Assembly: GCA_030065855.1 (NCBI GenBank)
Contig: JASJCT010000015.1
Coordinates: 16,724-80,723 of the forward strand
Direction: 5' to 3'
DNA length: 64,000 nt
Origin: Myxococcota bacterium
GTDB lineage: Bacteria > Myxococcota_A > Polyangia > JAAYKL01
In this document: one piece after another, positions 23,421 to 64,000 of the stretch
Layout of the letters: every line of letters begins with the position of its first letter
Position numbering within the stretch: the first letter of the stretch is position 1
The notes under the pieces: model-generated
Told to the model about the DNA's origin: nothing
Seen by the model: only the letters and a program-made list of their open reading frames with translations
Database searches by the model: none
Program-made: the position numbers and the translations under genes

Positions 23421-24062
23421 TTATTCCGCTCTTTGAATGAGACTCTCTTCAATTCTCTTAACAAAATTGTAGATCTGTTGTTTCCCGTGGGCGGTCTTGT
23501 ATTCGAGTTCAACGCCAATACCCGCTTCCGAAGAACGCGCACTTTGCCAGACCACCCGTCCATAACACTGATCTGGCGGGGCACTTTTATCGATAAAAAA
23601 TCTCAAGATGAGGGTCTCCCCAACCAGTACTGGTGCGTCCGTGGCAATAAAAATGCCTTCACGGCTGATGTTGGTGGCCTTGCCCCGATACCAATTATCT
23701 GAGGTTGAGAAGTCCACATCAAAGTCCACGGGAATACGCCGGCTTTTTCCTCGGCGCGCCTCCAGCCGCCCTTCGCAATACCGGACGAGGAACTGTATCT
23801 TTTCGGGTTCAGCCTTCTCCAAACTGATGCCCACACCTGGCTGAAGGGATCCTCGCCACCTGGTGGCAGGACGACGCCATACCACGCGCCCCCGCAGTTG
23901 GATCCCCTCTGGAATTTCAGGAAAACAGAGTTTTATCGAGACCATATCTCCCAAACCATAGGCCTTGTCTGTCGGGACAAACACGCCGCCCCCTGGAAGA
24001 TCGTGTAAGTACACCTGCTCGAAATCATCGCGACTCTCAAACCTCATCACTTCTGTACACAT
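23421..24062 (-). CDS. tandem PilZ-domain protein (TIGR02266-like)
   Basis: Two PilZ-like halves: RFESRDDFEQVY...GRVVWRR and RRIPVDFDVDF...GRVVWQS. Confidence 0.65.
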   Translation of the reverse strand: MCTEVMRFESRDDFEQVYLHDLPGGGVFVPTDKAYGLGDMVSIKLCFPEIPEGIQLRGRVVWRRPATRWRGSLQPGVGISLEKAEPEKIQFLVRYCEGRLEARRGKSRRIPVDFDVDFSTSDNWYRGKATNISREGIFIATDAPVLVGETLILRFFIDKSAPPDQCYGRVVWQSARSSEAGIGVELEYKTAHGKQQIYNFVKRIEESLIQRAE

Positions 24063-51100: not shown

Positions 51101-51626
51101 CGCATCCGATACATGCCTCAGGCGGATCGTCAGCTGGGGTTCCAACCGTTTTTTTCTCCCCGCGATGCATGCGGGCAATGGCACTGGTGGCATAAGTATC
51201 GCAGACCCGGGTACACAGGCCGCACAGAATGCAGGTTTCATCTGTGGCAGGGAATTGGGTGTCCCCCACCCCCATGGATGTGGCCAGGGCTTGGATCGCC
51301 GGCACCTCAGGGCATCTGGCCAGCAGCATCTTTACGACCATTTGCCTGTGGCGCAAGACCTCCTCAGTGGCAGTGAACACGACAATGTCTGCCTGGGCCG
51401 GGTAATTGCAGGAGGTAACCAGCTTTTTGCGGCCGTTCACTGCTACCTGGACGAGGCATAGGCGACACGCGCCCAAGGGTTCAAGTGCCTCGTGATGGCA
51501 CAGGGAGGGGATCTCAAGGCCGAGTCGGCTCGCCACATCGATCAGGGGCTCGTGCAACCGGGCCTGGGTCTTTAGCCCATCGACAGTTAATTCGACATGT
51601 TGTTCTTTGGTTTCTCTCGTCATCAT
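48105..51626 (-). CDS. multidomain iron-sulfur flavoprotein: NuoG-type 2Fe-2S + 4x[4Fe-4S] + MvhD/FlpD-like module fused to an opine-oxidase-A/HcnAB/proline-dehydrogenase-alpha-like unit
   Basis: Start set at MMTRETKEQHVELTVDG. Motifs read in order (1-4): (1) CHHEALEPLGACRLCLV. (2) CILCGLCTRVC, CIGCGACAKICP, CIACGVCETACP, CRGCGVCSAACP. (3) LELPCAGGIRPAVLLGALARGYAGVLVLG...TCG. (4) FTFEGETLPAQKGEMIASAL...CANGQCSQC. Motifs (5-7): (5) VLVLGGGPAGLSAA and FVLGGGNVGLIGA. (6) CDPCVAACP and CLGCGSCVVRCP. (7) BFD-like CRCERI...GGCGGKTC. Confidence 0.7.
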   Translation of the reverse strand: MMTRETKEQHVELTVDGLKTQARLHEPLIDVASRLGLEIPSLCHHEALEPLGACRLCLVQVAVNGRKKLVTSCNYPAQADIVVFTATEEVLRHRQMVVKMLLARCPEVPAIQALATSMGVGDTQFPATDETCILCGLCTRVCDTYATSAIARMHRGEKKTVGTPADDPPEACIGCGACAKICPTGHIKSTRTPGQLSIWDRTFPQAICTVNPLRCIACGVCETACPFSVARVVLQQDGRSRAVIDPKACRGCGVCSAACPCGAIDQPRVAPAQLPPIPVEDTGRVLAVACPRSALKAPTSPRLPHGVDILELPCAGGIRPAVLLGALARGYAGVLVLGRHEPTCGLAGAEAHARQVVERVEQVARAVGLGPGRVAFAEPAPGREGPVSSIRAFQQKITQQQPTVLVHRLPQDVPMAMPGDAATIAGWLLEQEALAAHRDTTWGDPHFDVGVPFLPTYRTTASQKYASFRQSKTSDKTDTPAVGERRITSHPILTPPASDPISFTFEGETLPAQKGEMIASALFAAGISVFGHHHRDGGAQGIFCANGQCSQCSVMANGRMVKSCMVPVEPGMTVERCDGLPPLPPASGPEKMGFPKEISVPVLVLGGGPAGLSAAIELGRVGIEVLVVDDKPELGGKLTLQTHGFFGSAADCYAGIRGIDIGRNLADDVAALPSVRVWTRATALGLFGDGKVGISTPQGYRLVTPETLIVALGAREKALSFPGCDLPGIYGAGAFQTLVNRDLISTSKKLFVLGGGNVGLIGAYHALQAGIDVVGLVEALPECGGYKVHADKIKRLGVPIWTRHSVIKASGNGRLERVTIAEIDETGRPISGTEQTFEADTLLIAVGLAPVDEILTKAREYGLNVVAAGDSDEVAEASAAIFSGRMVGRRLARDRGVPIDIPEHWESLAAVLRSRPGKTTAWRVPKGGEPIFPVIRCVQEIPCDPCVAACPHGLISMPGGIMGLPEYSGGCLGCGSCVVRCPGLAIVLVAEDYDKEKNLALVSLPVEFGNEKINLGTDVLTTDIDGLPLGKGQLVAVREREDQDRRKLALVAVPFEDRLNVAGFSIRGPSVPLATEKLDDDEDPIVCRCERIRKSEIVREIRAGVRDLNQLKSLARPSMGGCGGKTCTALVQRIFREEGVLPKEVTPGTIRPLIAETPLYAFIQTEDRDDDII

Positions 51627-51720
51627 ACTTCGCTCAACGCTTAACTTAGTGATTTCTATAACAGACGGCAAAACCGCAACCAAGTGTTAAAAAACCCTAG
51701 CGCGAGGAAGAGAGGAAGAA

Positions 51721-52053: not shown

Positions 52054-53466
52054 ATGGAAATAGCTGTGCAGCAAATCCAGGGCCAGATGGGCTACACGCT
52101 CGCCCCTCACGCGGTCCTGACGGTGGGAGATCATCGCGTCATGATCTCACGCCTTTCCCGGGGTTGGGTGCTACTATCCCCGGGTGACTACCAAAGCCTC
52201 GTTGATTTCTTCGACGAACATACATCTGCTAAGCTAGACACAGAGAGTCGCCAGATCGCAGAGCGCCTGTACCGCCTCGGACTCGCGCTGTGTGATGGTA
52301 AGCTAGCAGAACACCTCACGCCGTCCATGCCGGCTTTTCCCGAGAGCCTGCTCATTAAAATGACAGGGCACTGCAACTACAACTGCGATTACTGTTACGA
52401 TCACTCAGAATCCAGACGCAAACAGGATGTGGATGTAGCCAGGATTGTAACCACGATAGATCCCATTCTCGATCAGACCGGTAAGCTCAATATCACGTTC
52501 CACGGCGGTGAGCCCCTGCTGCGGTTCAGCGCGATTTCACGCATTGTCGACCACTGTGCCGAGCGCCATGCTGACAAAGCCATTCGCTTTGCCATACAAA
52601 CCAACGGCGCTTTGCTGGACGACACAACAGTCGAATTTCTCGATCGTCATGACTTTAGCGTGGGCATCTCCCTGGACGGATCAACACCAGACACCAACCA
52701 CCATCGGGGCCCCAAGGCATTGGACCACTTCTGCAGGCTACTCGAGCAGTACCCCGCTTTTATGGAGAAGCGCTGTGGTGCGCTCTCGGTCATCTCCCAG
52801 GCCAACGTGCGCGCGCTGCCTGACTTTGCCCTGTGGCTCCAGGACCACGGAATCCGCGGCCTCTCCACAACTGTCCTGGACCCCACGGGCCGGGCAAAAG
52901 ATCTGAATCAGAGTATCGGGCCCCAAGAGATTACAGGGCTGTACGATGCCTGGCTGCAACTCGTCCGAGCCGAGCGTATCACCGACCTCAAAATACAAAA
53001 TTTATTGGCCTACATGGACAACCTGGCCTGCTTTGACCCACCCAATTTCTGTCAAAAGGGTCCCTGCGGCGCGGGCGGTGAGTTCCTCGTGCTCGACGCG
53101 GACGGCAGTTTTCGTGCCTGTGATTGCATCATCCACGACGCCTTTATTTTAGGAGATCATAAGTGTACGCTGGAGCAGGCACTGGACGCGCCGTCGAGAA
53201 GACGGGTGGTCGACCGACACGCCTGGCTGGTATCACATGGCCCCTGTGCTGACTGCCCGTGGATACACTTGTGTGGAGGCACCTGCGCGGCCAAGGCCCT
53301 TGGATGCGCTACGGACGAAAACGCCGTCTATCCCGTGGAGTGCGCGCTCAACAAGCACCTGTACCCCATCTTGCTCGAGGCCTATGCCAGCGAACCAGAG
53401 GGCGCCTTGTACCAATACTATCGCCGGCACTCAAAAGCGCGACAGCGGCAGAACCCAGTGGTTTGA
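52054..53466 (+). CDS. radical SAM / SPASM-domain peptide-modifying enzyme
   Basis: Radical SAM motif MTGHCNYNCDYCY (Cx3Cx2C, ~52372-52395). The SPASM signature is CGAGGEFLVLDADGSFRAC (C..Gx4C) plus CADCPWIHLCGGTC (Cx2Cx5Cx3C). A ~95-aa N-terminal extension before the cluster motif may be an RRE/PqqD-like domain. Confidence 0.85.
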   Translation: MEIAVQQIQGQMGYTLAPHAVLTVGDHRVMISRLSRGWVLLSPGDYQSLVDFFDEHTSAKLDTESRQIAERLYRLGLALCDGKLAEHLTPSMPAFPESLLIKMTGHCNYNCDYCYDHSESRRKQDVDVARIVTTIDPILDQTGKLNITFHGGEPLLRFSAISRIVDHCAERHADKAIRFAIQTNGALLDDTTVEFLDRHDFSVGISLDGSTPDTNHHRGPKALDHFCRLLEQYPAFMEKRCGALSVISQANVRALPDFALWLQDHGIRGLSTTVLDPTGRAKDLNQSIGPQEITGLYDAWLQLVRAERITDLKIQNLLAYMDNLACFDPPNFCQKGPCGAGGEFLVLDADGSFRACDCIIHDAFILGDHKCTLEQALDAPSRRRVVDRHAWLVSHGPCADCPWIHLCGGTCAAKALGCATDENAVYPVECALNKHLYPILLEAYASEPEGALYQYYRRHSKARQRQNPVV

Positions 53467-54254
53467 TGGGTAACGCAGCCGACACGCTCATCGACCGCAT
53501 TGCAGCCTCTCTTCCACTGGATTCCACATGCATCACTGACCTGCCCGAAGCCGCAAGCGTGGACTCCTTTGATCCAGCCGTGCACGCCAAAGCCTGGTGG
53601 TGTTATGGGGTTGCAGCGCGCGCTTCAGGAGCTCCCCTCATCGACGAGCAGACCTTTCTGAAGGGATATTTTAGGGCTTTTTGTGACTTCTACCTGGCTG
53701 CGGCCCAGGCGCGCGAGGGTGACGGTAGCCCCTTGGAGAGGGGCCTCCCTCCCATTGTCTGTACAGCCCACTTCCCCAGCTATCCGCTTTACATGCGCGC
53801 GTTTAGGGAACGCGGCGCTTGTGTCCTGATCAGTCGCCGGGCTACTTGGATGGGCGATGGATGGCTGCAATCCGTGCATGAAAAAGGGGCCTTGAGCGCA
53901 GTGACGCAGGCTGTCCAAAAGGGGCGATCCATTGTGGCGATGATCGACCATGCCTTCCCAACAACCAGTAATGCGCCCATCCCTTTTCTCGGTTTGCCTT
54001 GCGCCACGCCCATGGGCTTGTTTGCGCTGGCCTCGCGCATGTCTCTCGGTATGGGCCTGCTCGTACCAGGGAACAACAGTGAACCAGAGGTTGTTGATTA
54101 CCCTGCAACAGCCAACATGGTACCTGGAACACTGGCTGCGGCCATGCTTCGGGATCTCAGCCGGGTTATTATGAAGACCCCAGAGCGCTGGCTGCTCTGG
54201 CCAAATCTAAACCATCGCTGGGAGCAAGACGCAGATTTATTTGACCTGGACTGA
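53466..54254 (+). CDS. LpxL/HtrB-like (lipid A biosynthesis acyltransferase family) protein with degenerate HX4D motif
   Basis: The ATG overlaps the rSAM stop (TGATG). The family-like C-terminal block is PERWLLWPNLNHRW (compare the PxQYxWxHxRW pattern I recall for LpxL). AHFPSYPLY occupies the position where the family has HxGNWE. Confidence 0.55.
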   Translation: MGNAADTLIDRIAASLPLDSTCITDLPEAASVDSFDPAVHAKAWWCYGVAARASGAPLIDEQTFLKGYFRAFCDFYLAAAQAREGDGSPLERGLPPIVCTAHFPSYPLYMRAFRERGACVLISRRATWMGDGWLQSVHEKGALSAVTQAVQKGRSIVAMIDHAFPTTSNAPIPFLGLPCATPMGLFALASRMSLGMGLLVPGNNSEPEVVDYPATANMVPGTLAAAMLRDLSRVIMKTPERWLLWPNLNHRWEQDADLFDLD

Positions 54255-54309: not shown

Positions 54310-55785
54310 TTAAAGTATATTGAAATCCCACCTGAGCTTGGCCCAAACCCTATCGTGTCGCTTGGCACCGGAGAGCATGCCGACCTCGATGCCGGGCTGG
54401 TATGTAATAAAGCCCAGGCCGGCCTTGAGGCCGTCGAGGATGGTGTAGCTGACCGTGGCGCGGGCCAACCAACCGTGCTGGGCGTTCCAGCCGAAGAGGA
54501 TTCCAGCTAACGCCAGGGTCATGTCGCCGTCGAGCACGTCGTGGGTGTAGCGCAGGGCGATCGATGGCTCTTCCACTGGGAATAGGACGTCGGGCAGATC
54601 TTCCAAGAGCCAGCTCTTCTTGATTTCGAGAAAGAGCATGGTGTCCTTAAGGCCTGAGTAGGTGATGCCTAGCAAGCCGCCGATGGAGGCGGCTTGTTCG
54701 TCGGAGAGCTCGGGTTGAACCGCTTCCTGATCACCGGTGTTGTAGTTTCTATCCTTTTCGGCACTGATTTCCCACTTGAACAACCAGCTGTCTACAGGCC
54801 AGGCACCCGAATGGCCGACCATGATGTAGCGGTGATGGTTGAGTACGATGTCCGTGCTGCGATCGATGATGATGCCCGAGAGGAGCGCCTGGTAGTCCAA
54901 CTCGATCACCCCCTGCTGATCGAGTACCGAGGCAACGTAGAGGGCCAGGTCGATGCCCGGTCCTTTGTAACCCCAGCGCAAGAGTACCTGCTGGGTGTTC
55001 AGGCTGAACAGGGCCTGTTTGTGTTTGTACCAAACCGGAGTGGTGGAGAGAAACTCCACTACATCGTCGGGTAGAAAGGCCGGCAGCGGGCTGAACAGGC
55101 CAAATGGCGGCGGTCGGTAGCCAAAGTTCGATTCGTGGATCACCAGCGCCTCGATGCGATGATAGCCGACAAACAACCCGATACGGGTGGAGAGAACCGG
55201 CAGGCGTAAGTCGTCGAGATCGGCTAGCCCTGGTTCCCGCAAATCACGCGGGCTGGCCACATCTACTAAACTGACCATGTCCCCTTCTCCCCAAACCACA
55301 ATTTGGCGCCCTATGCTCAACTCCACCTCACCAAAGGTCACGGCCAGGTATGACTCCCGCACATCTAATAACCACTCATAAGCATCGAGGGTGGGTTGAT
55401 CGTAGCTGTCCCGCTGGTAGAGGTAGGCAACGTCGTACTCCCCATGGCCTGAAACAACCAGGCGCAAGATCTCCCCTTTGTACCGCAAGACCAGATCGAG
55501 GTTCTGGCGCCCCTTGGCAAAGGGATTGTCCTCGAACCGCTCGGTCCACAGTGCCCATTCGGTCCTGAAAAAGCCACCCAAACGCCAGCGTGATGGGTTT
55601 TCCCCGCCTGCGCTCTCTTCGATTCCGGCCATGACGTCGGCGGACACATCGGCAAAGCCCGCACTGTCCGCGTCTTCGCCCCACCCTTCCCCGTCACCCC
55701 AGTCGTCCTCCGAGGAGGAATCCTCTGCAGTTAGACTATTGTCAGCACAAATCAGCCCCGGAGAGAGTAACTCGGCAAGAAGCAC
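54310..55785 (-). CDS. DUF1302-family outer-membrane beta-barrel-like protein
   Basis: The block SIGRQIVVWGEGDMVSLVDVASPRDLREPG matches the DUF1302 RQxVxWGE signature. The body is long, beta-rich and aromatic, ending in ...RWDFNIL. The start codon is uncertain: GTG at 55785, and the signal peptide may begin upstream. Confidence 0.65.
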   Translation of the reverse strand: MLLAELLSPGLICADNSLTAEDSSSEDDWGDGEGWGEDADSAGFADVSADVMAGIEESAGGENPSRWRLGGFFRTEWALWTERFEDNPFAKGRQNLDLVLRYKGEILRLVVSGHGEYDVAYLYQRDSYDQPTLDAYEWLLDVRESYLAVTFGEVELSIGRQIVVWGEGDMVSLVDVASPRDLREPGLADLDDLRLPVLSTRIGLFVGYHRIEALVIHESNFGYRPPPFGLFSPLPAFLPDDVVEFLSTTPVWYKHKQALFSLNTQQVLLRWGYKGPGIDLALYVASVLDQQGVIELDYQALLSGIIIDRSTDIVLNHHRYIMVGHSGAWPVDSWLFKWEISAEKDRNYNTGDQEAVQPELSDEQAASIGGLLGITYSGLKDTMLFLEIKKSWLLEDLPDVLFPVEEPSIALRYTHDVLDGDMTLALAGILFGWNAQHGWLARATVSYTILDGLKAGLGFITYQPGIEVGMLSGAKRHDRVWAKLRWDFNIL

Positions 55786-55838: not shown

Positions 55839-56675
55839 CTAGAGCCCTTTCTCCAGTCGCCGCTCGGTGAACTCCGCGTCGGTTACAGATGCCTGATTGT
55901 ATTTCAGGGAATGGTACATCATCACCGTGGTCGATTCGACTTTTCCATTTTTCAAGGTTCGCACGGTTAGTCTATGGGCTGTCCAGATGTCGTCTACTTT
56001 TCGAATGTCGTCGAATTTCATGTACTTGAGTTTCCGCCCTTCCTTGACCCATATCTTGGCTTGAATCGGCATCAGCTTGGACTTGCTGATCCAATAGTGG
56101 GACTTAAGATAACCGGTCTCCTTCTGCTCTTTGGCTGTTTTGGGTCTGGCCTCGATCAACCAGCAATCTTCATTGTCGACCTTCATGGACTGCTCGATCA
56201 TCTTGTAGTCATAGGCATCTATGTCCTTTTTCGTCATATCCGAGTAAGAGATATCAGTGCCCAGAAAGGCACCCGACTTGTCAGAAGTAGAGATACGAGT
56301 CGATTTGCGCAGACTGGGTAGATAGAGCCACTGATCGTCGTCCTTGGCCCCCTCATCATAGTCGATAGACAACAGTCCGGTATTGCGCATATCAGGAGGG
56401 CTCTCGAACAGCATCAACATCTTTCGTCCGCCGTTGAATTCAAGCGATTTCGAGTAGAGGACGCGTTCTCGTTTGCGACCCGAGCTGTCGATCAGGGTCA
56501 TCGACACTTTGGAGAGCACCTTGTCCCCATCATCCCGATCCTCCATCGCCTGCGCAATCTTGCGCGGATCAGATGTATTGGGATCTAGGGCTCGCGCCTC
56601 TGTGCTCATGGTGACCAAGGCCACTGTCAATCCACATCTAAACAAGAGAGCAGTAAATCCATAACTTTGTTTCAT
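55839..56675 (-). CDS. LolA-like outer-membrane lipoprotein-sorting protein family
   Basis: Signal peptide. Size (~250 aa mature) and sequence style match the LolA_like proteins found next to MMPL exporters. It begins 13 nt after the MMPL stop. Confidence 0.6.
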   Translation of the reverse strand: MKQSYGFTALLFRCGLTVALVTMSTEARALDPNTSDPRKIAQAMEDRDDGDKVLSKVSMTLIDSSGRKRERVLYSKSLEFNGGRKMLMLFESPPDMRNTGLLSIDYDEGAKDDDQWLYLPSLRKSTRISTSDKSGAFLGTDISYSDMTKKDIDAYDYKMIEQSMKVDNEDCWLIEARPKTAKEQKETGYLKSHYWISKSKLMPIQAKIWVKEGRKLKYMKFDDIRKVDDIWTAHRLTVRTLKNGKVESTTVMMYHSLKYNQASVTDAEFTERRLEKGL

Positions 56676-56688
56676 TCGATATTCCTTT

Positions 56689-59244
56689 CTACAAACGCTT
56701 TTCTCTCGGTTTGGATCGGTAGGCCAACCTCAGCAAGGCCGGTCCGACAATGAGATCGAAGAGAAGCGCAAAAATAATGGCCAACCCGGCCAGCGCACCG
56801 AACCGCGCCAGGGGATACATGGTTGCTGCCAGAAACACCAAGAAACCCATGACCAAAATGATGCTAGTGCTGGTCATGGCGCGCCCGGTATGGGAAAAGG
56901 CGTGATCAATAGCCGCATCCACATCGCCGTAGTCCGCATAATGAACCCTGAATTGATGGAGAAAGTGGATGGTGTCATCCACGGCAATACCGATGACGAT
57001 TGAAGCAATAATCAGATTGGCCGTATCCAGGGGAATCGAGGCAAAGCCCATGATCCCCATAACTGAAACCACGGGTAGCAGGTTGGGTACCATCGAAATC
57101 AACCCCAGCTTAATGTCTCGCAGCAATAAAACCATCACAATCGTAATGGCTATAAAAGCAACCCCAAAGCTTCGGATCAGATCCGATATTAACGCGCTGA
57201 CCACCGTAGACACGCAAAACACTGAACCGGTTGTCTTAATGATGGCTCTGTCACCAATAAACTCCTCAACCCCCTTGGCAATATGTGCGGTCAATGGCTT
57301 GTAAGACCAAGCGTCCATCCAATTGACGCGGATGGTCATCAAACTCTTCACAAAGTCGACGGTTGTCAGTCTTTTCAGTTGATCTGGAGCTGCATTTTCA
57401 AAGAGGGTAAACATATCGACCACACCGCGTTCTGTATCTGGAATCCGATAAAAGGCCTGATTCGACTCGTTAACCGCTCTCCAGCTCTCGCGGATCACGT
57501 CGAGCAGACTGGTGGTCGTACCCACAATGGGTTGCGTACTCTTTGGATCCTGATAAGCGCTGATGTGGTTTTCTAGTTTTTCAAGTTGTATCAGCAGATC
57601 GCGATCCTTGAGATTTTGATCTTCTTTGGCACTGATCAGCAACGCCACATTTGCCGTCCCACCCACATGTCGATCCATCTCGTCCATGGCCTGACGAATA
57701 TCCCGATCCTCGGGAATCCAGCTCAGGGCATCATGGTGCACCACCAGGGTTGTGGCCCCAGCGGCAACAATCAAGGTAAAGCCTGCTGAGACCCAAAGCG
57801 TCATTCGCCTGCGCAGATGCTGATTCGCCCCCTGTCCCGCACTTGGACGTGACAGATAGTTACAAAAATTCAAAAATCGATTGAGCAGGTCACGGCGAGT
57901 CTCACCTGGCTTGACACCCAACAGACTCTTGTTGTTGAACGAGAGCATCACCGGGAGGAAAACCAGCGAGTGGATCAGCGTCACGGCAATACCCAGTGCA
58001 CCAAATGTCCCCATATCGATGATCGCCCCCAGGGTTGCAAAGCGAAAGCTAATCAGCCCCACTGCCGTCGTTAACGTGGTGTAAAACACCGGAACACCGG
58101 TTGTGGATATGGCGTAGATGATCGCCTGCTGATTGGGGATTCCCCGACCGCGCCCATCTCGATACACCGACTGAATATGAACCGAGCCCCCCACGCCGAC
58201 GCAGGCCAAGAATGCGGGCAAGACATTGGTCAGCATGGTCATCGGCACGCCGGATATGGCCATCGCGCCGAGGGTCCACCCCGCTGACTGCCAGACCACC
58301 AACACCGGCCCGATAATGCCGAGGGGATGACGGAAAATCAGCGCCAGCACCAAGGTCATTACCGCCAGTGCAATCAGGGTCAGGCGATAGAAATCCTGCA
58401 ACATCATCTCGTTTAGAGATGCATTGAAGGCGGGCAATCCAGCCACGGAGATGTGAAATCCGTCGTGATGGTGTTTATCTGTAATCGCCACAACCTCGCG
58501 GAAGACGCGATCCAAATCTCTCTCATCTAGAAAATCGGTTCTGACGATGACCACCGAGTGCCGCCCCTCAGCCCCTACCACCTGCCCTACTAGGACCTCG
58601 TCGTTCAACACGCGCTGCTTCAACGCGGGCAGATCCGCTTTGGTGGGCCATTCGTCCAGCAGACCGGCCACCTCGAGCCCCCCGCCCTTCCATGCTGTCC
58701 GGCGAACATTGATCAATGAGATGATCTCTTCGACAATGGTGCTGCCGCCCTCATCTCCCCAACCTTCATCCCCGTCAAATCCCTCGAAACCAGCCGGATC
58801 ATTTGCAGTAGCAGCACCAACGGCATCTGACCCGTCATCAACAGGGCTTGCACGAAACGGATCGTCCACTTGCTTGGCACTTTTGCCTCGCCGTCGTTGC
58901 CCCAGGCTGTTGAGCTGCAGATCGATCACTGCTAAATCGTCGTGAAGCGCTTTCAACCGCTCCAGATAAGACATGGAAAAGACATCGCCTTCCACGAGTA
59001 TCTGGTAAATGTTGTCCTGGCCGAAGTCATCGTACAGCTCGTCGAGAACGATGATTTCGTCAGCTTTGTCCCCCATGAAGGCCTCGGTGGAATTGTCGAT
59101 GGTCAGCTTGTCCCAGGCCTGGTACCCCATAAAGCCGGTGATGGTGAAGTTGAGCACCAGAAAAATCCAGCGAAAGCGAAGCACGCATTCCCCCCAGCGT
59201 CTGAAAAAGGGATTCTGCGGAGCAGAATACGGATCGGTTGACAC
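56689..59244 (-). CDS. MMPL/RND-superfamily exporter
   Basis: 851 aa with a GTG start and two TM bundles. The SSD-type segment is IGIAVDDTIHFLHQF. The large first periplasmic loop carries an acidic insertion. Confidence 0.8.
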   Translation of the reverse strand: MSTDPYSAPQNPFFRRWGECVLRFRWIFLVLNFTITGFMGYQAWDKLTIDNSTEAFMGDKADEIIVLDELYDDFGQDNIYQILVEGDVFSMSYLERLKALHDDLAVIDLQLNSLGQRRRGKSAKQVDDPFRASPVDDGSDAVGAATANDPAGFEGFDGDEGWGDEGGSTIVEEIISLINVRRTAWKGGGLEVAGLLDEWPTKADLPALKQRVLNDEVLVGQVVGAEGRHSVVIVRTDFLDERDLDRVFREVVAITDKHHHDGFHISVAGLPAFNASLNEMMLQDFYRLTLIALAVMTLVLALIFRHPLGIIGPVLVVWQSAGWTLGAMAISGVPMTMLTNVLPAFLACVGVGGSVHIQSVYRDGRGRGIPNQQAIIYAISTTGVPVFYTTLTTAVGLISFRFATLGAIIDMGTFGALGIAVTLIHSLVFLPVMLSFNNKSLLGVKPGETRRDLLNRFLNFCNYLSRPSAGQGANQHLRRRMTLWVSAGFTLIVAAGATTLVVHHDALSWIPEDRDIRQAMDEMDRHVGGTANVALLISAKEDQNLKDRDLLIQLEKLENHISAYQDPKSTQPIVGTTTSLLDVIRESWRAVNESNQAFYRIPDTERGVVDMFTLFENAAPDQLKRLTTVDFVKSLMTIRVNWMDAWSYKPLTAHIAKGVEEFIGDRAIIKTTGSVFCVSTVVSALISDLIRSFGVAFIAITIVMVLLLRDIKLGLISMVPNLLPVVSVMGIMGFASIPLDTANLIIASIVIGIAVDDTIHFLHQFRVHYADYGDVDAAIDHAFSHTGRAMTSTSIILVMGFLVFLAATMYPLARFGALAGLAIIFALLFDLIVGPALLRLAYRSKPREKRL

Positions 59245-59286: not shown

Positions 59287-62200
59287 TCACGTGCATACAC
59301 CTGTAGATTCGCCGCTGAATTCACATGGCACACAGTGTTCACCCAAGTTACATGTCGTCCTCGTAAACAACAGTTTCTCCAGCGTGTCGAGGTAGCATCC
59401 CGGAACGCACGCGCCAGGATCACCAGCGGCAACGCCGCCTGCCGTACAAGTTGGAAATCCATTGACAGCTGGATCCAAAATGATCGAATTCGGCGCACAG
59501 AGGTGGTTTTCCTGAGTGCAACTATCCTGGACCACCTGATCGCCTAATTCGGCGGGAATAAGTTCACTGGGCACACAGGTACCGATCTGGACCCCTTCCT
59601 CTTCACAGCACTTGTCAAACACCACCGGCAGATGCTGCGGCCCCGGATCCCCAGGGAGATGACACGCGCCGGTTGCCTCACCGGTAAACGGATCGAAACA
59701 AGGGGAACAACGGCTGTTCTCCGGGCATCCAGTTTCCGGTAACAGAGCCCCTTGAGTCGCCACCCAAGGTAGGCAGTCGGGCAGGCAACGTCCTTCTAGA
59801 TCGGCAAAAGAGGTGCACGTCGTCGGAATGAAACCATCATCCTGGAAATCGTCTGGGACACAGAGCAATCCCTGGTCTGGCGAACACACATCATCGCCAA
59901 GCATGGTCTGTTGCTCTGCTGAGATGAGCGCCTTAGGCAGGCAGCGTCCCTCACTGTCACAACAGGTTTCAAACACCACTGGCGGGCGGACCGGCCCTGA
60001 ATCCCCGGGGAATTCGCAAGCACCAGTGGCAATACCGGTATAGAGATCGTAGCAGGGAGCGCACAAATGATACTCAGGACAGATATCCTGGGGCAACCAT
60101 CCTGCCTGTTCGGCAATGGCCGGGAGGCACTCTGGCAAACAGCGCCCTTCGGCATCGATGATGGAATAGCAGTGCGACGGTGCTGTCTCCTCGACGATAA
60201 AATCCGGTGCACAGAGCAGGTCCTGCCCCTGCGCACAGGTATGCTCACTGAGCTGTGCCTGCTGATCGACCGAAACCAGTGTATCTGGCACACAACGGCC
60301 CAATCCCTCACAGCAGCGGTCAAAGATCACAGCCGGTTCTGTCGGACCGGGATCACTGCCCATCTCGCAGATCTCCGTATTGTCTCCTGAAAATGGATCG
60401 TAGCACGGTGCGCAGCGCTCACCTGCTTCACAGACATCCTGTACCAAAAAGGCCTGTCCAGCAGCGGCGGGCAAGCACTTGGCTACACAGCGTCCCTCGG
60501 CAGCCAAAATTCCGTGACAAGTGGTCGGAATAAAGTCGTCCACTAGAAAATCATCGGGAACACACAAGAGACCATAGCCACTGGTGCAGACATCCAGGCC
60601 AAGATGGGGGTGTTGATCCTCGGGGATCATCGCTTGGGGCACGCAGGTACCTGCCTCATCGCAGCATGCCTCGAAGACTACCGGCTCCAGGGCAGGTCCC
60701 GGATCTCCGCCCATGCGGCATACCCCTGTGTCCTCGCCGGTAATTGGATCGTAACACGGTGCACACCGATAAAACGGCGGGCACAAATCCTGTGGCAGGT
60801 CGTCTTGCTGCGCTGCAATTTCCGGCAGGCAAATCGGTGCACACCGGCCCTCACCGCCATAGGGCAACCGACACATCTCAAGCACAAAGTCCGCTTCCAA
60901 AAACGCGTCCGGTACACAGCGCAGGGTCTCATCCCCAGTACAGGTATCAGAGCCCAGGCTCTCCAGGTCCTGTTGGGGAATGAGGTCCTTGGGGATGCAG
61001 GTGCCAAGCTCCCCGCAGCAGGCATCGAACACCACGGCAGGCTCTGTAGGTCCTGGATCATCCCCGAGCTCGCAAAGTCCGGTGGCATCTCCTGTGAATG
61101 GGTCATAGCAAGGTGCACACAGGTGGTGCGCAGGGCAAATATCTTGATAGAGGGAATCCTGTTCCTCGGCGATTTCCGGCAGACAGGTCGATATGCAGCG
61201 GCCCTCGGCCTCTAGTACGCCGTGGCAAGTGGTGGGGACAAAGCCGTCCTCCATGAAATCGTGGGGCACGCAGAGCAATCCCTGATTGGCTGTACACGCG
61301 TCGAGGCCGAGGTGGGACTGTTGATCACCTGAAATCAGCCATTCGGGCACACAACTTCCCAAACCATTGCAACAGGCCTCAAACACCACTGGTTCCAAGG
61401 TCGGACCGGGATCGCCCCCCAACTCACAAAGCCCCGTCGATATCCCGTCCGTGGGATCATAACAGGGCGCACAGCGATAGTTTGCAGGACAGATGTCCTG
61501 GGGGAGATCGTCCTGTTGGCCTGCCACATCCGGCAGGCAGATCGGGACACAGCGACCTTCTGCACCCAAGGTGGACCGGCACATATCCAGCACAAAATCT
61601 TCCTCGAAAAAATCGTCGGGAGCGCAAAGCAGCGCTTCATCCCCTTCGCAGGTATCCGGGCCGAGATGATCCAGCTCATTTTCGGATATCAAGCCTGCTG
61701 GAATGCAGCTACCCCCCCCATTGCAACAGGTATCGAACGTCACTGCCGGTTCAGTCGGGCCAGTATCCTCGCCCATCTCGCAGAGCCCGGTGAGGTCGCC
61801 GGAAAAGGGATCATAGCACGGCGCACACAGGTATTTTTCAGGGCATATATCTTGGTACAATAGATCCTTATTTTTTGCCATCTCAGGAAGGCATTCGGGT
61901 ACGCAGCGCCCCTCAGCGCCAAGGACCCCGTGACAAGTGGTCGGAATGAATCCCGTTTCTATAAAGTCGTCAGGCACGCAGAGCAGGCCCTGGTTTTCCG
62001 GACACATGTCGATACCTAGATGCTCCTGCTGATTTTGGGGAATCAATGACAGGGGCACACAGCTGCCCAAGTCGTCACAGCACGTCTCGAAAAGTACCGG
62101 CTCCATCAAAGGCCCTGGATCACCCCCCAGCTCGCACAGGCCGGTGGATTCGCCATCGAACGGATCGTAGCAAGGAGCACAGCGGTAGTAGGCCGGACAG

Positions 62201-62874
62201 ACATCCTGCGGCAGGCCGTCCATCTGATCCGCCACTTCCGGCAGACAAATGGGCACACATCGTCCCTCAGCCCTCTGCGTTGAACGACAGGAGGCGAGCA
62301 CGAAATCATCCTGTCGAAATTCTTCTGGCATGCAGAGCATCGGCCCATCACCGTCACAGGTATCCACCCCAAGGCGAGATTGATGCTCGGCTGGGACCAG
62401 CTCGGTTGGGATACACCATCCCTGTTCATGGCAACATTTGTCAAAGGTCACGGCTGGCTCAGCCGGCCCTGTGTCATTGCCCAAATCGCACAGCTCGGTC
62501 GTGTTTCCGTCAAATGGATCGTAACAAGGGGCGCAGAGGTAATGTTCCGGACACTGATCCTGAGGAAGCAGGTCCTCCTGCTCAGCAATATCGGGCAGGC
62601 AACTCGGCAGACAGCGGCCTTCGGCATCCAGCGTTGAACGACAAGACGCGGGCACATAACTATCGAACGCGACAAATTCGGTCGGAAGACACAAGTAGTC
62701 CACATCGCAGCTATCTCGATTGAGAAACGCAACGTTTTCGTCCGGTACCAAGCTGCTGGGCAAGCAACTCCCCAAATCGTGACAGCAAGACGGTAGGGGT
62801 TCGCCACGACTTGACTCCCCGCACCCGAGCAAACATCCGATAAATATTGTAAAGCAACACCGCCAAAACATCAT
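59287..62874 (-). CDS. giant lipoprotein composed of ten ~115-aa cysteine-rich repeats (12 Cys per repeat)
   Basis: Start set at MMFWRCCFTIFIGCLLGCGESS (lipobox LLGC), with GGAGG upstream. The repeat consensus is CCxxxGxCxP..L.P......LGxDxC.....LCxPDxF...xF...C......EGRCxPxCLP.......LxQDxCP..YxCAPCYDPFxGxxTGxCExGxDPGPxEPxVxF. The tenth unit is truncated. Confidence 0.8.
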   Translation of the reverse strand: MMFWRCCFTIFIGCLLGCGESSRGEPLPSCCHDLGSCLPSSLVPDENVAFLNRDSCDVDYLCLPTEFVAFDSYVPASCRSTLDAEGRCLPSCLPDIAEQEDLLPQDQCPEHYLCAPCYDPFDGNTTELCDLGNDTGPAEPAVTFDKCCHEQGWCIPTELVPAEHQSRLGVDTCDGDGPMLCMPEEFRQDDFVLASCRSTQRAEGRCVPICLPEVADQMDGLPQDVCPAYYRCAPCYDPFDGESTGLCELGGDPGPLMEPVLFETCCDDLGSCVPLSLIPQNQQEHLGIDMCPENQGLLCVPDDFIETGFIPTTCHGVLGAEGRCVPECLPEMAKNKDLLYQDICPEKYLCAPCYDPFSGDLTGLCEMGEDTGPTEPAVTFDTCCNGGGSCIPAGLISENELDHLGPDTCEGDEALLCAPDDFFEEDFVLDMCRSTLGAEGRCVPICLPDVAGQQDDLPQDICPANYRCAPCYDPTDGISTGLCELGGDPGPTLEPVVFEACCNGLGSCVPEWLISGDQQSHLGLDACTANQGLLCVPHDFMEDGFVPTTCHGVLEAEGRCISTCLPEIAEEQDSLYQDICPAHHLCAPCYDPFTGDATGLCELGDDPGPTEPAVVFDACCGELGTCIPKDLIPQQDLESLGSDTCTGDETLRCVPDAFLEADFVLEMCRLPYGGEGRCAPICLPEIAAQQDDLPQDLCPPFYRCAPCYDPITGEDTGVCRMGGDPGPALEPVVFEACCDEAGTCVPQAMIPEDQHPHLGLDVCTSGYGLLCVPDDFLVDDFIPTTCHGILAAEGRCVAKCLPAAAGQAFLVQDVCEAGERCAPCYDPFSGDNTEICEMGSDPGPTEPAVIFDRCCEGLGRCVPDTLVSVDQQAQLSEHTCAQGQDLLCAPDFIVEETAPSHCYSIIDAEGRCLPECLPAIAEQAGWLPQDICPEYHLCAPCYDLYTGIATGACEFPGDSGPVRPPVVFETCCDSEGRCLPKALISAEQQTMLGDDVCSPDQGLLCVPDDFQDDGFIPTTCTSFADLEGRCLPDCLPWVATQGALLPETGCPENSRCSPCFDPFTGEATGACHLPGDPGPQHLPVVFDKCCEEEGVQIGTCVPSELIPAELGDQVVQDSCTQENHLCAPNSIILDPAVNGFPTCTAGGVAAGDPGACVPGCYLDTLEKLLFTRTTCNLGEHCVPCEFSGESTGVCT

Positions 62875-63178
62875 AGAACGCCTCCCCGTTACCCGGCAAA
62901 AACCATCCCCGATATCTTTCATCTTGCCGAAAAAGAATAAATGGTATGGCGAAAACATAAGTAGAATAAAAACACTTTTAGAAGCTTTACCTCAATGATT
63001 TTGCTCAGCCTGCCGATGTTCGAGCAAGTCGTCTAAGATTGCATCGAGGAGCAGGTCTTTGAATAAAAAGTATGAATTACCCGCGCGGGAAAGGGTATGC
63101 AGAGTCGTCCGAGATTGTGATCCCGGACTCAGAAGCATGTGCGAAATCATAATTCGGAACTAGATTATTGAATCAGCA

Positions 63179-64000
63179 TCAGTCAAACAGGTGGCTGACC
63201 TTGATCATGAAGATCTGTTCTCGTTCTTCTTTGTCGAGATAAGAGAGGCTTTTCCGCAGTGAGGGGCTGCTTCCAGGGACATCCGCGAATCCGCCATGGG
63301 TGTATAGGACATAGAGGACGCTGCCGGGGCGGTATTCCCAGCGCAGTAGGGTTTGCATATTGAGCTGAGTGCCGCCCATGTCGGCTGCTTCGTCGGCATA
63401 ATCGATGGGAGACGTGGTATGCTTGTTTTGCAGCCAATGATAGTCAGAATAATCTGCCGCATAAGACAGAAGTTGCGCTTGCACTTGGAAAGTCAGATCG
63501 CGCCTCAGCACCAGGGTGCCGCCAAAGTTGAGATCGAACTGATCAACGGTTCGCTTGCCGATAATTGTTCTATCGGTGCCGAGGTCGTCGACTACCGTGT
63601 CAACATACGCCTTCTGCCCTTCCATGTGGGACAGTTTAGGGGTCACGCTTAGTTCTAATCGACCCAGTCGCAGTATACCCGAGACTTGTGTCTCGATACC
63701 ATATCCATAGGGTAGGCGGGTCACCAGGAAAGTCATATTCGCACCAACCTTCCAGTGCATGGGTGTGGTCAGATAAACCCACCCATCCAGATGCCTTGGA
63801 AGATACAATAGCGGACCACCCCTGGTTTCCATGTCGTCATAGTGCGCATTGCTGATATCTATGACGACGTTCGATACCCAACCACCACCGAACATCGCGG
63901 CGATTTCTCCGGTCAGCCAGTGGCCGAGGTCGACGCCATCCAGGTTGAGCGAACCACGCAACGTCAGACTTGCGATGGCAATATCGAAGGGTCCCCATCG
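63179..64000 (-). CDS. C-terminal part of a beta-rich (probable outer-membrane barrel, possibly DUF5916-like) protein; 5' end outside window
   Basis: The frame is open to the window edge. It has alternating-hydrophobic beta-strand character with frequent aromatic residues and ends in ...IFMIKVSHLFD. The family guess is weak. Confidence 0.45.
   Translation of the reverse strand, partial: RWGPFDIAIASLTLRGSLNLDGVDLGHWLTGEIAAMFGGGWVSNVVIDISNAHYDDMETRGGPLLYLPRHLDGWVYLTTPMHWKVGANMTFLVTRLPYGYGIETQVSGILRLGRLELSVTPKLSHMEGQKAYVDTVVDDLGTDRTIIGKRTVDQFDLNFGGTLVLRRDLTFQVQAQLLSYAADYSDYHWLQNKHTTSPIDYADEAADMGGTQLNMQTLLRWEYRPGSVLYVLYTHGGFADVPGSSPSLRKSLSYLDKEEREQIFMIKVSHLFD

What the first reader, a model, noticed from the sequence alone, without database searches (positions are those of the whole stretch)
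59287..62874. ~1200-aa lipoprotein built from ten 12-cysteine repeats in an alternating A/B pattern
Seen: after a lipobox signal (LLGC) the whole protein consists of ~115-aa units. Each has 12 Cys in fixed spacing: CC-x4-C ... C ... C ... C ... EGRC-x3-C ... C ... C-x2-C (CAPCYDPF) ... TGxC. The units are separated by a GDPGPxEPxV linker. Neighbouring units differ systematically. Type A reads ...DFVLxxCRSTxxAEGRCxPICLP...DxLPQDxCPxxYRCAPCYDP. Type B reads ...QGLLCVPDDFxxxGFIPTTCHGxLxAEGRC...LYQDICPxxxLCAPCYDPF. The evolutionary unit is therefore an ~230-aa AB pair amplified several times, with a truncated tenth unit. An even Cys count per unit suggests six disulfides per module. I do not recognise the module; it differs from the short Myxococcus cysteine-rich repeat, EGF, and TSP3. 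Candidate roles are a surface adhesin or stalk, a metal or metalloid binder, or a protease-resistant coat component.
Basis: partly seen in the sequence, partly recalled or inferred. Interest (0 to 1): 0.75.

Follow-up and report, generated by a model that had tools for sequence, protein, structure and literature searches.

The report
New disulfide-rich rod lipoprotein family
This is a real 1195-residue lipoprotein made of ten copies of an undescribed 118-residue, 12-cysteine domain, predicted to form a rigid acidic rod; its family occurs only in Polyangia myxobacteria and sits beside outer-membrane barrels and pumps that move greasy molecules, so it is probably a new accessory part of such systems.

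Summary
The ORF at 62874..59287 (minus strand) encodes a 1195-aa lipoprotein with lipobox LLGC and a strong SD. It has ten modules of 117-118 aa (the last is 107 aa), each with exactly 12 Cys.

- **A/B alternation is real only for modules 2-7.** The layout is U1-(AB)x3-U8-U9-cap. The closest ortholog has (AB)x2.
- **It is not an assembly artefact.** Module DNA identity is at most 67%, and the same gene appears in three assemblies.
- **The module matches nothing known.** Pfam, NCBIfam and PDB sequences give no hit. Foldseek gives nothing (best E 3.3) despite confident AF2 models (pLDDT 93; two-module pTM 0.83, which points to a rigid rod).
- **New here:** each module is an ancient duplication of a ~50-aa beta-alpha-beta half (hhalign 96%). 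Cys2 and Cys8 are lost together, which implies a disulfide.
- **Distribution:** 759 representative clusters. All 79 genome loci are in Polyangia.
- **Context:** the gene heads an operon with an HAE3/MMPL RND pump, a LolA-like protein and a DUF1302 barrel, an Ame-like cassette. Long relatives pair with DUF1302-like barrels plus FtsX-ABC or RND transporters. Short relatives pair with FadL-like barrels.

Best reading (confidence about 0.4): an outer-membrane-anchored rod that partners these barrels. Function is untested.

The parts
62881..62887 (-). Shine-Dalgarno GGGGAGG, 6 nt upstream of the ATG at 62874
   Evidence: Read directly from the sequence.
62821..62874 (-). Lipoprotein signal peptide MMFWRCCFTIFIGCLLG plus the lipid-acceptor Cys18 (lipobox LLGC)
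   Evidence: At least 77% of N-terminally complete homologs have a lipobox-type signal. Other gene callers give the same 1195-aa product (P0248).
62788..62820 (-). Short tether (GESSRGEPLPS) between the lipid Cys and the first module
   Evidence: Across the family the tether has a median of 20 aa and a range of 7-128.
62437..62787 (-). Module U1 (aa 30-146), a unique N-terminal module; orthologous to module 1 of P0002 (64% identity)
60316..62436 (-). Modules U2-U7 (aa 147-853): three tandem AB pairs of 236 aa (708 nt), the recently amplified core
   Evidence: Identity matrix. Lag-708 periodicity. Ortholog P0002 has two AB pairs. AF2 model of U2+U3: pLDDT 93.5, pTM 0.83. AF2 model of U3: pLDDT 93.3.
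59611..60315 (-). Modules U8 and U9 (aa 854-1088), unique modules orthologous to modules 6 and 7 of P0002
59290..59610 (-). Module U10 (aa 1089-1195): divergent 12-Cys C-terminal cap without the GDPGP...VxF tail; the stop codon is at 59287-59289
   Evidence: Cap-like last modules are seen in the homologs inspected.
56689..59244 (-). HAE3/MMPL-type RND transporter with a sterol-sensing-like domain, 42 bp downstream on the same strand
   Evidence: Pfam MMPL 101 bits, SSD 50 bits. TIGR00921 HAE3 E=1e-63, below that model's cut-off. The same gene (73% identity) overlaps the CR gene's stop by 4 bp in ortholog locus L084.
55839..56675 (-). LolA-like (TP_0789-like, PF17131; weak DUF1329) periplasmic protein, 13 bp after the RND gene
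   Evidence: Pfam 168.6 bits. Recurs near CR genes in L002, L005, L006, L030 and L090.
54310..55785 (-). DUF1302-family outer-membrane beta-barrel, last gene of the operon
   Evidence: Pfam DUF1302 36 bits, above its cut-off. Homologs lie directly downstream of the CR gene in L002, L005, L006 and L030; a 4-bp overlap was read in L002, L088, L089 and L090, and L085 has a 29-bp gap. Family assignment of the L085, L088, L089 and L090 genes.
63179..64000 (-). 3' part of an 800-aa CBM9+DUF5916 gene upstream on the same strand (cut by the window end); its link to the system is uncertain
   Evidence: Full gene seen in L091. Not present upstream in ortholog locus L084.

Best explanation
The gene encodes a secreted, N-terminally lipidated envelope protein. 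It is held to a membrane, most likely the outer membrane, by a short flexible tether.

The rest of the protein is a rigid, strongly acidic rod of ten modules. Each module is a duplicated ~50-aa beta-alpha-beta half, fixed by about six disulfides. At least one disulfide (Cys2-Cys8) staples the two halves together. A divergent cap module closes the far end.

The rod is proposed to be a dedicated accessory subunit of envelope systems that move hydrophobic molecules. In this window it would work with the co-transcribed HAE3-type RND pump, LolA-like carrier and DUF1302 barrel, which together form an Ame-like cassette. It would dock on the barrel and extend the transport path away from the membrane, either to capture or hand over substrate or to shield or organise the barrel. 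Rod length would be tuned by gain and loss of modules.

**Shown:** the gene, the signal and lipobox, the module anatomy, the hierarchical duplication, the lack of any known homolog or fold, the confident rigid two-module model, and the conserved gene linkage.

**Inferred:** lipidation, outer-membrane location, disulfide formation, physical contact with the barrel, and any role in transport.
For: **Anatomy**
- Ten 12-Cys modules.
- Lipobox plus SD.
- Lipobox-type signals in at least 77% of relatives.

**Structure**
- Module AF2 model: pLDDT 93.3, pTM 0.84.
- AB-pair model: pLDDT 93.5, pTM 0.83, with the junction at pLDDT about 96. This argues for a rigid rod.
- The two halves of the module align at 96% probability, E=2.4e-9.
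- Cys2 and Cys8 are lost together in 14 modules and Cys8 is never lost alone.

**Operon**
- Gaps between the four genes are 42, 13 and 53 bp.
- The arrangement is identical in L091.
- The CR gene followed by the RND gene is also seen in the 63%-identical ortholog.

**Linkage across the family**
- Of 68 loci with at least 2 kb downstream, 26 have a FadL-like, DUF1302-like or 'c6' barrel within 4 kb. In 11 the barrel is directly downstream on the same strand.
- Every FadL-like hit lies within 1.4 kb of the CR gene, although the flanks reach about 10 kb.
- Eight of ten long-form loci carry a DUF1302-like barrel and/or an FtsX-ABC or RND transporter next to the CR gene. A 4-bp start/stop overlap was read in four of them.
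- Partner type tracks rod length. Forms of 2-4 modules go with FadL or c6 barrels, and long forms go with DUF1302.

**Literature**
- DUF1302 + LolA-superfamily + HAE3 RND cassettes act on hydrophobic compounds (PMC6394551; bioRxiv 10.1101/2020.07.04.188060).
- DUF1302 is a predicted 18-strand barrel that docks DUF1329 (PMC13499233).
Against: - About 60% of loci show no recognised barrel or transporter neighbour, including Sandaracinus L001, L086 and L087. The link is frequent but not universal.
- Proteobacterial DUF1302/DUF1329/RND cassettes work without any such protein, so it is not a core part.
- The partner barrels belong to three unrelated families, which is odd for one specific docking interface.
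- No coordinates were available, so no hydrophobic groove, interface or rod length could be examined.
- No complex prediction was possible.
- Loci from related genomes are not independent observations.
- The side of the outer membrane on which the rod sits is unknown.
Confidence: 0.4

Rival explanations
1. The protein is a free-standing surface fibril: an adhesin, stalk or protective coat. The rod is displayed on the cell surface for attachment, spacing or protease resistance. Its transport-gene neighbours are unrelated to its job, or only help to export it.
For: - A rigid, disulfide-rich, very acidic repeat rod (pI 4.05) is typical of extracellular structural proteins.
- Module number varies from 2 to about 11 or more, as in adhesins.
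- Several paralogs occur per genome.
- About 60% of loci lack barrel or transporter neighbours.
Against: - Tight operon links, some with overlapping start/stop, tie the gene to barrels and pumps in many lineages.
- No known adhesin or S-layer domains were found.
- No route across the outer membrane is known for a folded protein with about 60 disulfides.
Confidence: 0.22
2. The rod is a periplasmic bridge or adaptor. Anchored in the outer-membrane inner leaflet, or in the inner membrane, it spans the periplasm and links the inner-membrane RND or FtsX-ABC transporter to the DUF1302 barrel. It would take the place of a membrane-fusion protein or of the AmeC propeller.
For: - The cassettes lack any HlyD-type adaptor, and the window operon lacks an AmeC-like propeller.
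- The CR gene sits between the transporter and barrel genes in L085 and L090.
- The rod is predicted to be rigid.
- Disulfides form in the periplasm (established knowledge).
Against: - Module number ranges from 2 to 11 or more, which does not fit a fixed periplasmic width.
- Short forms pair with FadL-like barrels with no inner-membrane transporter in the operon.
- Some cassettes also carry propeller lipoproteins.
Confidence: 0.15
3. The rod is the cargo. The FtsX-ABC (LolCDE-like) or RND transporter, the LolA-like carrier and the DUF1302-like barrel form a dedicated Lol-like route. This route extracts the lipoprotein and delivers or displays it at the outer membrane, analogous to Slam-type translocons that are encoded next to their substrates.
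For: - The CR protein is the only lipoprotein consistently encoded in the ABC/FtsX + TP_0789-like + barrel cassettes.
- MacB/FtsX-type ABC transporters and LolA-like proteins are the parts of the lipoprotein-sorting pathway (established knowledge; papers listed).
Against: - The same cassette types exist widely without CR genes and give hydrophobic small-molecule phenotypes.
- FadL-like partners have no known protein-export role.
- An RND pump replaces the ABC transporter in the window.
Confidence: 0.12
4. The protein binds or buffers metals or cations. The dense cysteines or the acidic surface would bind metals, metalloids or Ca2+.
For: - 10% Cys and 17.5% Asp+Glu, with about -13 to -21 net charge per module.
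- YHS/YtkA copper-type genes lie a few kb upstream on the other strand in L091.
Against: - Cys count is strictly even, and loss is correlated in pairs, which points to structural disulfides rather than free thiols.
- The protein is exported to the oxidising periplasm.
- No metal-binding motif family matched.
- Metal genes are not conserved neighbours.
Confidence: 0.08

Closest known systems
AmeABCD-type cassettes (DUF1302 OM protein + DUF1329/LolA-superfamily protein + COG4447 propeller + HAE3 RND), e.g. Castellaniella defragrans; related Pseudomonas DUF1302/DUF1329/BNR/RND genes
   Same: The window operon has an HAE3/MMPL RND pump, a LolA-like (PF17131, weak DUF1329) protein and a DUF1302 barrel on one strand with short gaps. 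The known cassettes act on hydrophobic compounds.
   Different: No AmeC-like propeller gene is in the operon. A 1195-aa Cys-repeat lipoprotein, absent from the described cassettes, heads the operon. In relatives an FtsX-type ABC transporter often replaces the RND pump.
Myxococcus cysteine-rich repeat proteins (TIGR02232 / DUF4215-type) and MXAN_6577-like Cys-rich proteins
   Same: Both are myxobacterial, secreted, built of tandem Cys-rich repeats and probably disulfide-bonded.
   Different: No HMM match even at E<=10. The module is 118 aa with 12 Cys rather than about 40 aa, with its own motifs (CC-x5-C, EGRC-x3-C, CxPCxDP, TGxC, GDPGP) and its own beta-alpha-beta x2 architecture.
Eukaryotic small disulfide-rich modules (follistatin/Kazal, Clip, EGF, TSP3)
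   Same: Small modules that depend on disulfides and are arranged in tandem. These were the top, non-significant Foldseek rows.
   Different: Foldseek E is at least 3.3, probability at most 0.07, TMq at most 0.23. There is no sequence similarity.
Lipoprotein partners of outer-membrane barrels (SusD/RagB with SusC, TbpB with TbpA, Slam substrates)
   Same: A lipoprotein gene sits next to an outer-membrane barrel gene, often with translational coupling. A capture, hand-over or cargo relationship is plausible.
   Different: This is an analogy only. No homology was detected. The partner barrels here are FadL-like, DUF1302-like or an unassigned small OMP, not TonB-dependent transporters or Slam. 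Surface exposure is untested.

Membership tests
Bacterial lipoprotein (Lgt/LspA substrate) | N-terminal signal peptide ending in a lipobox [LVI][ASTVI][GAS]C | tested here: met
   MMFWRCCFTIFIGCLLG|C, with SD at the correct spacing. At least 77% of complete homologs have such a signal.
Bacterial lipoprotein (Lgt/LspA substrate) | Actual diacylglyceryl modification and signal peptidase II cleavage | not testable with these tools
   Needs palmitate labelling, globomycin sensitivity or mass spectrometry.
Myxococcus cysteine-rich repeat (TIGR02232 / Pfam DUF4215) and other catalogued Cys-rich repeats | Significant match to the family HMM | tested here: not met
   Pfam-A and NCBIfam scans of the whole protein returned 0 families at E<=10.
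Any solved protein fold (PDB) or viral predicted fold (BFVD) | Significant sequence-profile or structural match | tested here: not met
   The 100-sequence profile against PDB sequences gave 0 hits at E<=10. Foldseek best E was 4.5 (single module), 3.3 (two modules) and 2.1 (BFVD). AlphaFold DB was not available.
Ame-type HAE3 RND cassette | HAE3-family RND inner-membrane transporter | tested here: met
   Pfam MMPL 101 bits and SSD 50 bits, both above their cut-offs. TIGR00921 E=1e-63 but 215 bits, below the 352-bit cut-off. So it is HAE3-like, and subfamily membership is not strict.
Ame-type HAE3 RND cassette | DUF1302 outer-membrane protein and LolA-superfamily (DUF1329) periplasmic protein in the same operon | tested here: met
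   DUF1302 36 bits (cut-off 23.2). LolA_like PF17131 168.6 bits. DUF1329 26.4 bits (cut-off 23.1). Same strand, with gaps of 13 and 53 bp.
Ame-type HAE3 RND cassette | COG4447/BNR (Ycf48-like) beta-propeller periplasmic protein (AmeC) | tested here: not met
   None of the five same-strand genes in the window or L091 cluster has such a domain. The Cys-repeat gene is present instead.
Ame-type HAE3 RND cassette | Efflux of, or tolerance to, hydrophobic compounds | not testable with these tools
   Needs genetics and transport assays.
New 12-Cys module family (this work) | ~118-aa module with 12 conserved Cys and the motifs CC-x5-C, EGRC-x3-C, CxPC[YF]DP, TGxC | tested here: met
   All ten window modules match. 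589 modules in 120 homologs were found, 95% with 12 Cys. The exhaustive profile search gave 759 representative clusters at E<=1e-3.

The most novel reading that the evidence does not exclude
The 12-Cys module is a new protein fold. The rods built from it would be a previously unrecognised class of trans-envelope component. One version is a rigid, length-adjustable, disulfide-stapled adaptor or antenna that completes DUF1302/LolA-like/RND-or-ABC and FadL-type hydrophobe transport machines in Polyangia. The other version is the dedicated cargo of a Lol-like export route that ends in a DUF1302 barrel. Either would give the first functional handle on the long-uncharacterised DUF1302/DUF1329-type cassettes.
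Probability: 0.3. Interest if true: 0.8.

Novelty: new variant of a known kind. Interest (0 to 1): 0.6.

Why it matters
- **A missing domain family.** The module is absent from Pfam, NCBIfam and the PDB, yet it folds confidently in silico, so it is a clean candidate for a new domain family and fold.
- **A record of repeat growth.** A half-module doubled to a module, modules paired as AB, and the AB array then changed in copy number between close orthologs.
- **A lead on uncharacterised transport systems.** The family recurs next to DUF1302, LolA-like, HAE3-RND or FtsX-ABC, and FadL-like genes. This links it to envelope systems for hydrophobic molecules whose mechanisms are still unknown even in Pseudomonas.
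- **Testable proposals.** A lineage-specific extra subunit, or a dedicated cargo, would give concrete experiments on how such systems bridge the periplasm or the cell surface in myxobacteria, which are rich in lipids, sterols and secondary metabolites.
- **An annotation fix.** The NCBI gene model drops the signal peptide, and one homolog is mis-named 'Tryptophan synthase alpha chain'.

Tried and rejected
- **Family and structure searches came back empty.** Pfam and NCBIfam scans of the protein gave nothing. The PDB sequence-profile search gave nothing. Foldseek against PDB (single module and pair) and BFVD gave only chance-level rows such as follistatin, Kazal and Clip.
- **One locus search had to be redone.** The search for related loci with the diverse 100-sequence alignment failed because no stretch was conserved enough. 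It worked with a narrower alignment.
- **Assembly artefact rejected.** TRF found no DNA-level tandem repeat, and the longest exact repeat is 20 nt.
- **Some neighbour clusters dismissed.** The most frequent neighbour cluster was Ser/Thr kinases, which are generic in myxobacteria. Clusters 1, 7 and 20 were antisense ORF artefacts of GC-rich DNA.
- **Domain fusions gave little.** Ten atypical members gave only one case, P0202 with a fatty-acid hydroxylase.
- **The second MMPL gene is solitary.** The gene at 24234-26714 has no LolA or DUF1302 partners.
- **No RNA genes.** Rfam and tRNA scans of the region and window found none.
- **Promoter and terminator scan uninformative.** Counts were near shuffle expectation.
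- **Literature search found no prior description.** This covered Cys-rich lipoproteins with FadL in myxobacteria.
- **Apparent joint loss of Cys1 and Cys2 is an alignment artefact.** In 18 modules, insertions follow the CC.

Full report
**1. The observation**

The minus strand carries one long ORF, 59287..62958. The ATG at 62874 has a GGGGAGG Shine-Dalgarno six nt upstream. It opens with MMFWRCCFTIFIGCLLG|C, a short lipoprotein signal with lipobox LLGC. Other gene callers give exactly this 1195-aa product (P0248). The NCBI model (P0001, 1158 aa, 'hypothetical protein QNJ97_05785, Myxococcota bacterium') starts later and loses the signal.

Cutting the protein at each 'CC' gives ten units of 117-118 aa, with the last at 107 aa. 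Each unit has exactly 12 Cys.

The DNA periodicity is clear. Identity is 0.457 at lag 354 nt and 0.452 at lag 708, against 0.266 +/- 0.019 for other lags. The repeat finder reports families spaced 354 or 708 nt apart at 60-79% identity.

**2. The A/B pattern**

The identity matrix gives these groups:

| Units compared | Protein identity |
|---|---|
| U2, U4, U6 (type A) with each other | 58-66% |
| U3, U5, U7 (type B) with each other | 62-70% |
| A against B | 48-58% |
| U1, U8, U9 against all others | about 50% |
| U10 against all others | about 33% |

In U2-U7 the 708-nt lag (0.609) beats the 354-nt lag (0.535).

The closest ortholog, P0002 (63% identity), reads U1-A-B-A-B-U8-U9-cap, with module-by-module best matches to the window protein. 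The two proteins therefore differ by exactly one AB pair. The AB pair is the unit of recent copy-number change, but only in the core of the protein.

U10 keeps all 12 Cys and lacks only the linker tail. Similar last modules end the relatives I inspected. It is a cap, not a truncation.

**3. Not an artefact**

- Module DNA identities are 41-67%.
- The longest exact repeat is 20 nt.
- TRF finds nothing.
- The identical gene, with the same neighbours, is on three contigs from separate assemblies, including a 195.8-kb scaffold.

**4. What the module is**

No database matched it:

- Pfam-A and NCBIfam give no hit even at E<=10.
- A 100-sequence module profile (A1) finds nothing among PDB sequences at E<=10.
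- Foldseek against PDB and BFVD gives only chance-level rows, with best E of 4.5, 3.3 and 2.1 and TMq at most 0.23.

The structure predictions were nonetheless confident:

- With alignment A1, AlphaFold2 gives a model of module U3 with pLDDT 93.3 and pTM 0.84. Its layout is beta-alpha-beta, a short strand, then beta-alpha-beta.
- A two-module model (U2+U3, 56 paired sequences) has pLDDT 93.5 and pTM 0.83, with the junction at about 96. This argues for a fixed inter-module geometry, a rod rather than beads on a string.

- **The module is an internal duplication.** The two halves of the module are homologous. hhalign of the half-1 and half-2 profiles gives 96% probability, E=2.4e-9. It superposes G-x-C-[VL]-P ... 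L..D.C ... LC.P in both halves, at the same ~52-residue offset as the repeated secondary structure. A weak 156-nt lag is also visible in the DNA. So the module is an ancient duplication of a ~50-aa unit.
- **Cys2 and Cys8 are probably paired.** Both are missing in 14 modules, with at least three different replacement types. Cys8 is never lost alone (Fisher p=8e-19, not corrected for relatedness). The best explanation is a Cys2-Cys8 disulfide joining the two halves. By the half-to-half alignment, Cys1, 2, 8 and 11 are the 'extra' cysteines, so a second staple Cys1-Cys11 is a reasonable inference only. Three modules lose Cys2 and Cys4 instead, which I cannot explain.

**5. The family**

- The search for homologous proteins gave 191 hits. 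Every hit that carries a source name is called hypothetical, and none has a Pfam domain.
- 120 of them hold 589 full modules, 95% with 12 Cys. Most proteins have 6 modules, with a range of 4-11.
- The exhaustive profile search finds 759 representative clusters at E<=1e-3. These include 2-4-module forms.
- A scan of one genome per species returned 127 confirmed sites. The 79 loci kept are all in class Polyangia: Polyangiales, Sandaracinaceae, Kofleriaceae, Haliangiales and Labilithrix. Several genomes carry more than one copy.
- At least 77% of N-terminally complete members have a lipobox-type signal. The tether to the first module has a median of 20 aa and a range of 7-128.
- Modules are acidic throughout the family, with a median net charge of -7. 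The window protein is extreme at pI 4.05, with 206 Asp+Glu against 39 Lys+Arg.
- Sources name members 'hypothetical protein'. One Sandaracinus copy carries the legacy mis-annotation 'Tryptophan synthase alpha chain'.
- I found no paper describing the family.

**6. Genomic context**

In the window the gene heads a same-strand run with 42-, 13- and 53-bp gaps:

1. Cys-repeat gene
2. 851-aa MMPL/SSD RND pump (HAE3-like; TIGR00921 E=1e-63, below that model's cut-off)
3. LolA-like protein (PF17131, 169 bits; weak DUF1329)
4. DUF1302 barrel

An 800-aa CBM9+DUF5916 gene lies upstream on the same strand.

This is the gene set of the AmeABCD cassette of Castellaniella defragrans. That cassette has a DUF1302 outer-membrane protein, a LolA-superfamily protein, an HAE3 RND pump and a COG4447 propeller, and it is involved in monoterpene tolerance and Nile-red efflux (PMC6394551). 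The propeller is missing here, and the Cys-repeat lipoprotein is present instead.

Related literature:
- Pseudomonas DUF1302/DUF1329 genes are co-fit with BNR and RND genes on Tween 20 and fatty esters (bioRxiv 10.1101/2020.07.04.188060).
- DUF1302 is a predicted 18-strand barrel with no solved structure. It is predicted to dock DUF1329 (PMC13499233).

Across relatives I clustered all ORFs of 83 loci without prior assumptions. The recurrent specific neighbours were:

| Neighbour | Loci | Notes |
|---|---|---|
| FadL/TodX-like barrel (PF03349, E=1e-15) | 15 | 12 within 200 bp on the same strand; both gene orders occur |
| DUF1302-like barrel | 8 | |
| Unassigned small OMP 'c6' | 5 | An MMPL pump is also present in 3 of these |
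| LolA-like protein | 5 | |
| ABC ATPase | 6 | |
| Beta-propeller lipoprotein | 4 | |

- Of 68 loci with at least 2 kb downstream, 26 have one of the three barrel types within 4 kb. In 11 it is directly downstream on the same strand.
- As an internal control, every FadL-like hit lies within 1.4 kb of the Cys-repeat gene, although the flanks searched reach about 10 kb.
- Eight of the ten long-form loci examined carry the barrel and/or an inner-membrane transporter next to the gene.
  - The ten loci are the window, L084, L085, L086, L087, L088, L005, L089, L002 and L090.
  - The usual layout is ABC ATPase + double-FtsX/MacB permease, then the Cys-repeat gene, then a DUF1302-like barrel. A 4-bp overlap was read in L002, L088, L089 and L090. 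A TP_0789/LolA-like gene lies nearby.
  - Sources.
- Partner type follows rod length. Forms of 2-4 modules go with FadL-like or c6 barrels, and long forms go with DUF1302-like barrels.
- The link is not universal. Sandaracinus L001, L086, L087 and about 60% of the genome loci show none of these neighbours.

**7. How it most likely works**

The following are shown:
- an exported, lipobox-bearing protein built as a rigid, capped, acidic rod of a new disulfide-rich module;
- a gene tightly linked in many lineages to outer-membrane barrels and inner-membrane transporters of hydrophobe-transport type.

The rest is inferred. The rod would be lipid-anchored, probably in the outer membrane, because the +2 residue is Gly. 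The sorting rule behind that is recalled knowledge and was not tested. It would be disulfide-bonded in the periplasm, dock to the co-encoded barrel, and extend or organise the transport path. I put this at about 0.4.

The rivals are a free-standing surface fibril or adhesin (0.22), a periplasmic bridge replacing an adaptor or AmeC (0.15), the cargo of a dedicated Lol-like route (0.12), and a metal or cation binder (0.08).

- The variable module number argues against a fixed periplasm-spanning ruler.
- The strictly even and pairwise-covarying Cys argue against free-thiol metal binding.
- The existence of the same cassettes without this protein elsewhere argues that it is an accessory subunit or a cargo, not a core part.

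**8. Comparison and novelty**

It is not a member of any catalogued Cys-rich repeat family, since the HMM tests failed. It matches no solved fold. The operon meets three of the four gene-content features of an Ame-type cassette and fails the fourth, the propeller.

I file it as a new variant of a known kind: a tandem-repeat, disulfide-rich envelope lipoprotein attached to a known type of transport cassette, built from an apparently new domain. The more radical reading is a new fold that forms a new class of trans-envelope component or dedicated cargo. That reading is not excluded, and I give it about 0.3.

**9. Limits**

- No coordinates and no multimer prediction were available.
- AlphaFold DB was not available for fold comparison.
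- Neighbourhood counts are not corrected for shared ancestry.
- ORF calling in GC-rich loci was heuristic.
- All functional statements are inference from context.

Noticed in passing
window 62763-62874 (minus strand): The NCBI gene model (P0001/MDJ0762483.1, 1158 aa) starts at an internal TTG and omits the signal peptide and lipobox. The 1195-aa call has a strong SD and is the one made by other pipelines (P0248).
   Followed up: yes
window 24234-26714 (+): A second MMPL-family RND gene (826 aa) stands alone. Its neighbours are a PilZ protein (23421-24062), an RHS-repeat ORF (21762-22706) and unannotated ORFs. It has no LolA-like or DUF1302 partner.
   Followed up: partly
window 63179-64000 (minus strand); L091 7294-9696: An 800-aa CBM9_1+DUF5916 protein is encoded just upstream on the same strand, about 300 bp before the Cys-repeat gene. 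It is not present upstream in the closest ortholog's locus (L084), so its link to the operon is unclear.
   Followed up: partly
window 48105-51683 and 46955-48259 (minus strand): A 1192-aa fusion protein combines 4Fe-4S dicluster, FlpD (MvhD-like), 2Fe-2S (Fer2_4), a pyridine-nucleotide-disulfide oxidoreductase domain and a BFD-like domain. It sits next to a DAO-family FAD oxidoreductase. This is an unusual electron-transfer architecture.
   Followed up: no
window 52054-54254 (+): A radical SAM gene and an LpxL-like lipid A acyltransferase-family gene converge on the end of the DUF1302 gene. They could be lipid-related, but their orientation gives no operon link.
   Followed up: no
P0202 (776 aa, from the representative search): One family member has an N-terminal fatty-acid hydroxylase / alkylglycerol-monooxygenase-like membrane domain fused to three Cys-repeat modules. 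This is a single, possibly mis-called, fusion that again points to lipids.
   Followed up: partly
P0245 / AKF04543.1 (Sandaracinus amylolyticus): A 6-module homolog in a cultured species is named 'Tryptophan synthase alpha chain' in GenBank and UniRef. This is an evident mis-annotation.
   Followed up: yes
L003 12121-15365; L026 7101-8705; L029; L032: Beta-propeller lipoproteins (weak TIGR03866/WD40-type hits) co-occur with the Cys-repeat gene and DUF1302-like barrels in four loci. They may be the counterparts of AmeC.
   Followed up: partly
P0190, P0177, P0204 (short-form relatives): In a sub-group the leading 'CC' is replaced by an N-terminal extension, CPY.GPP..DP..LP.C. Three modules lose Cys2 and Cys4 instead of Cys2 and Cys8. 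Both hint at alternative disulfide wiring.
   Followed up: no
L091 1-6956: Upstream of the cluster, on the other strand, lie YtkA/YHS-domain (copper-type) genes and a two-component system. They are not seen near other family members.
   Followed up: no
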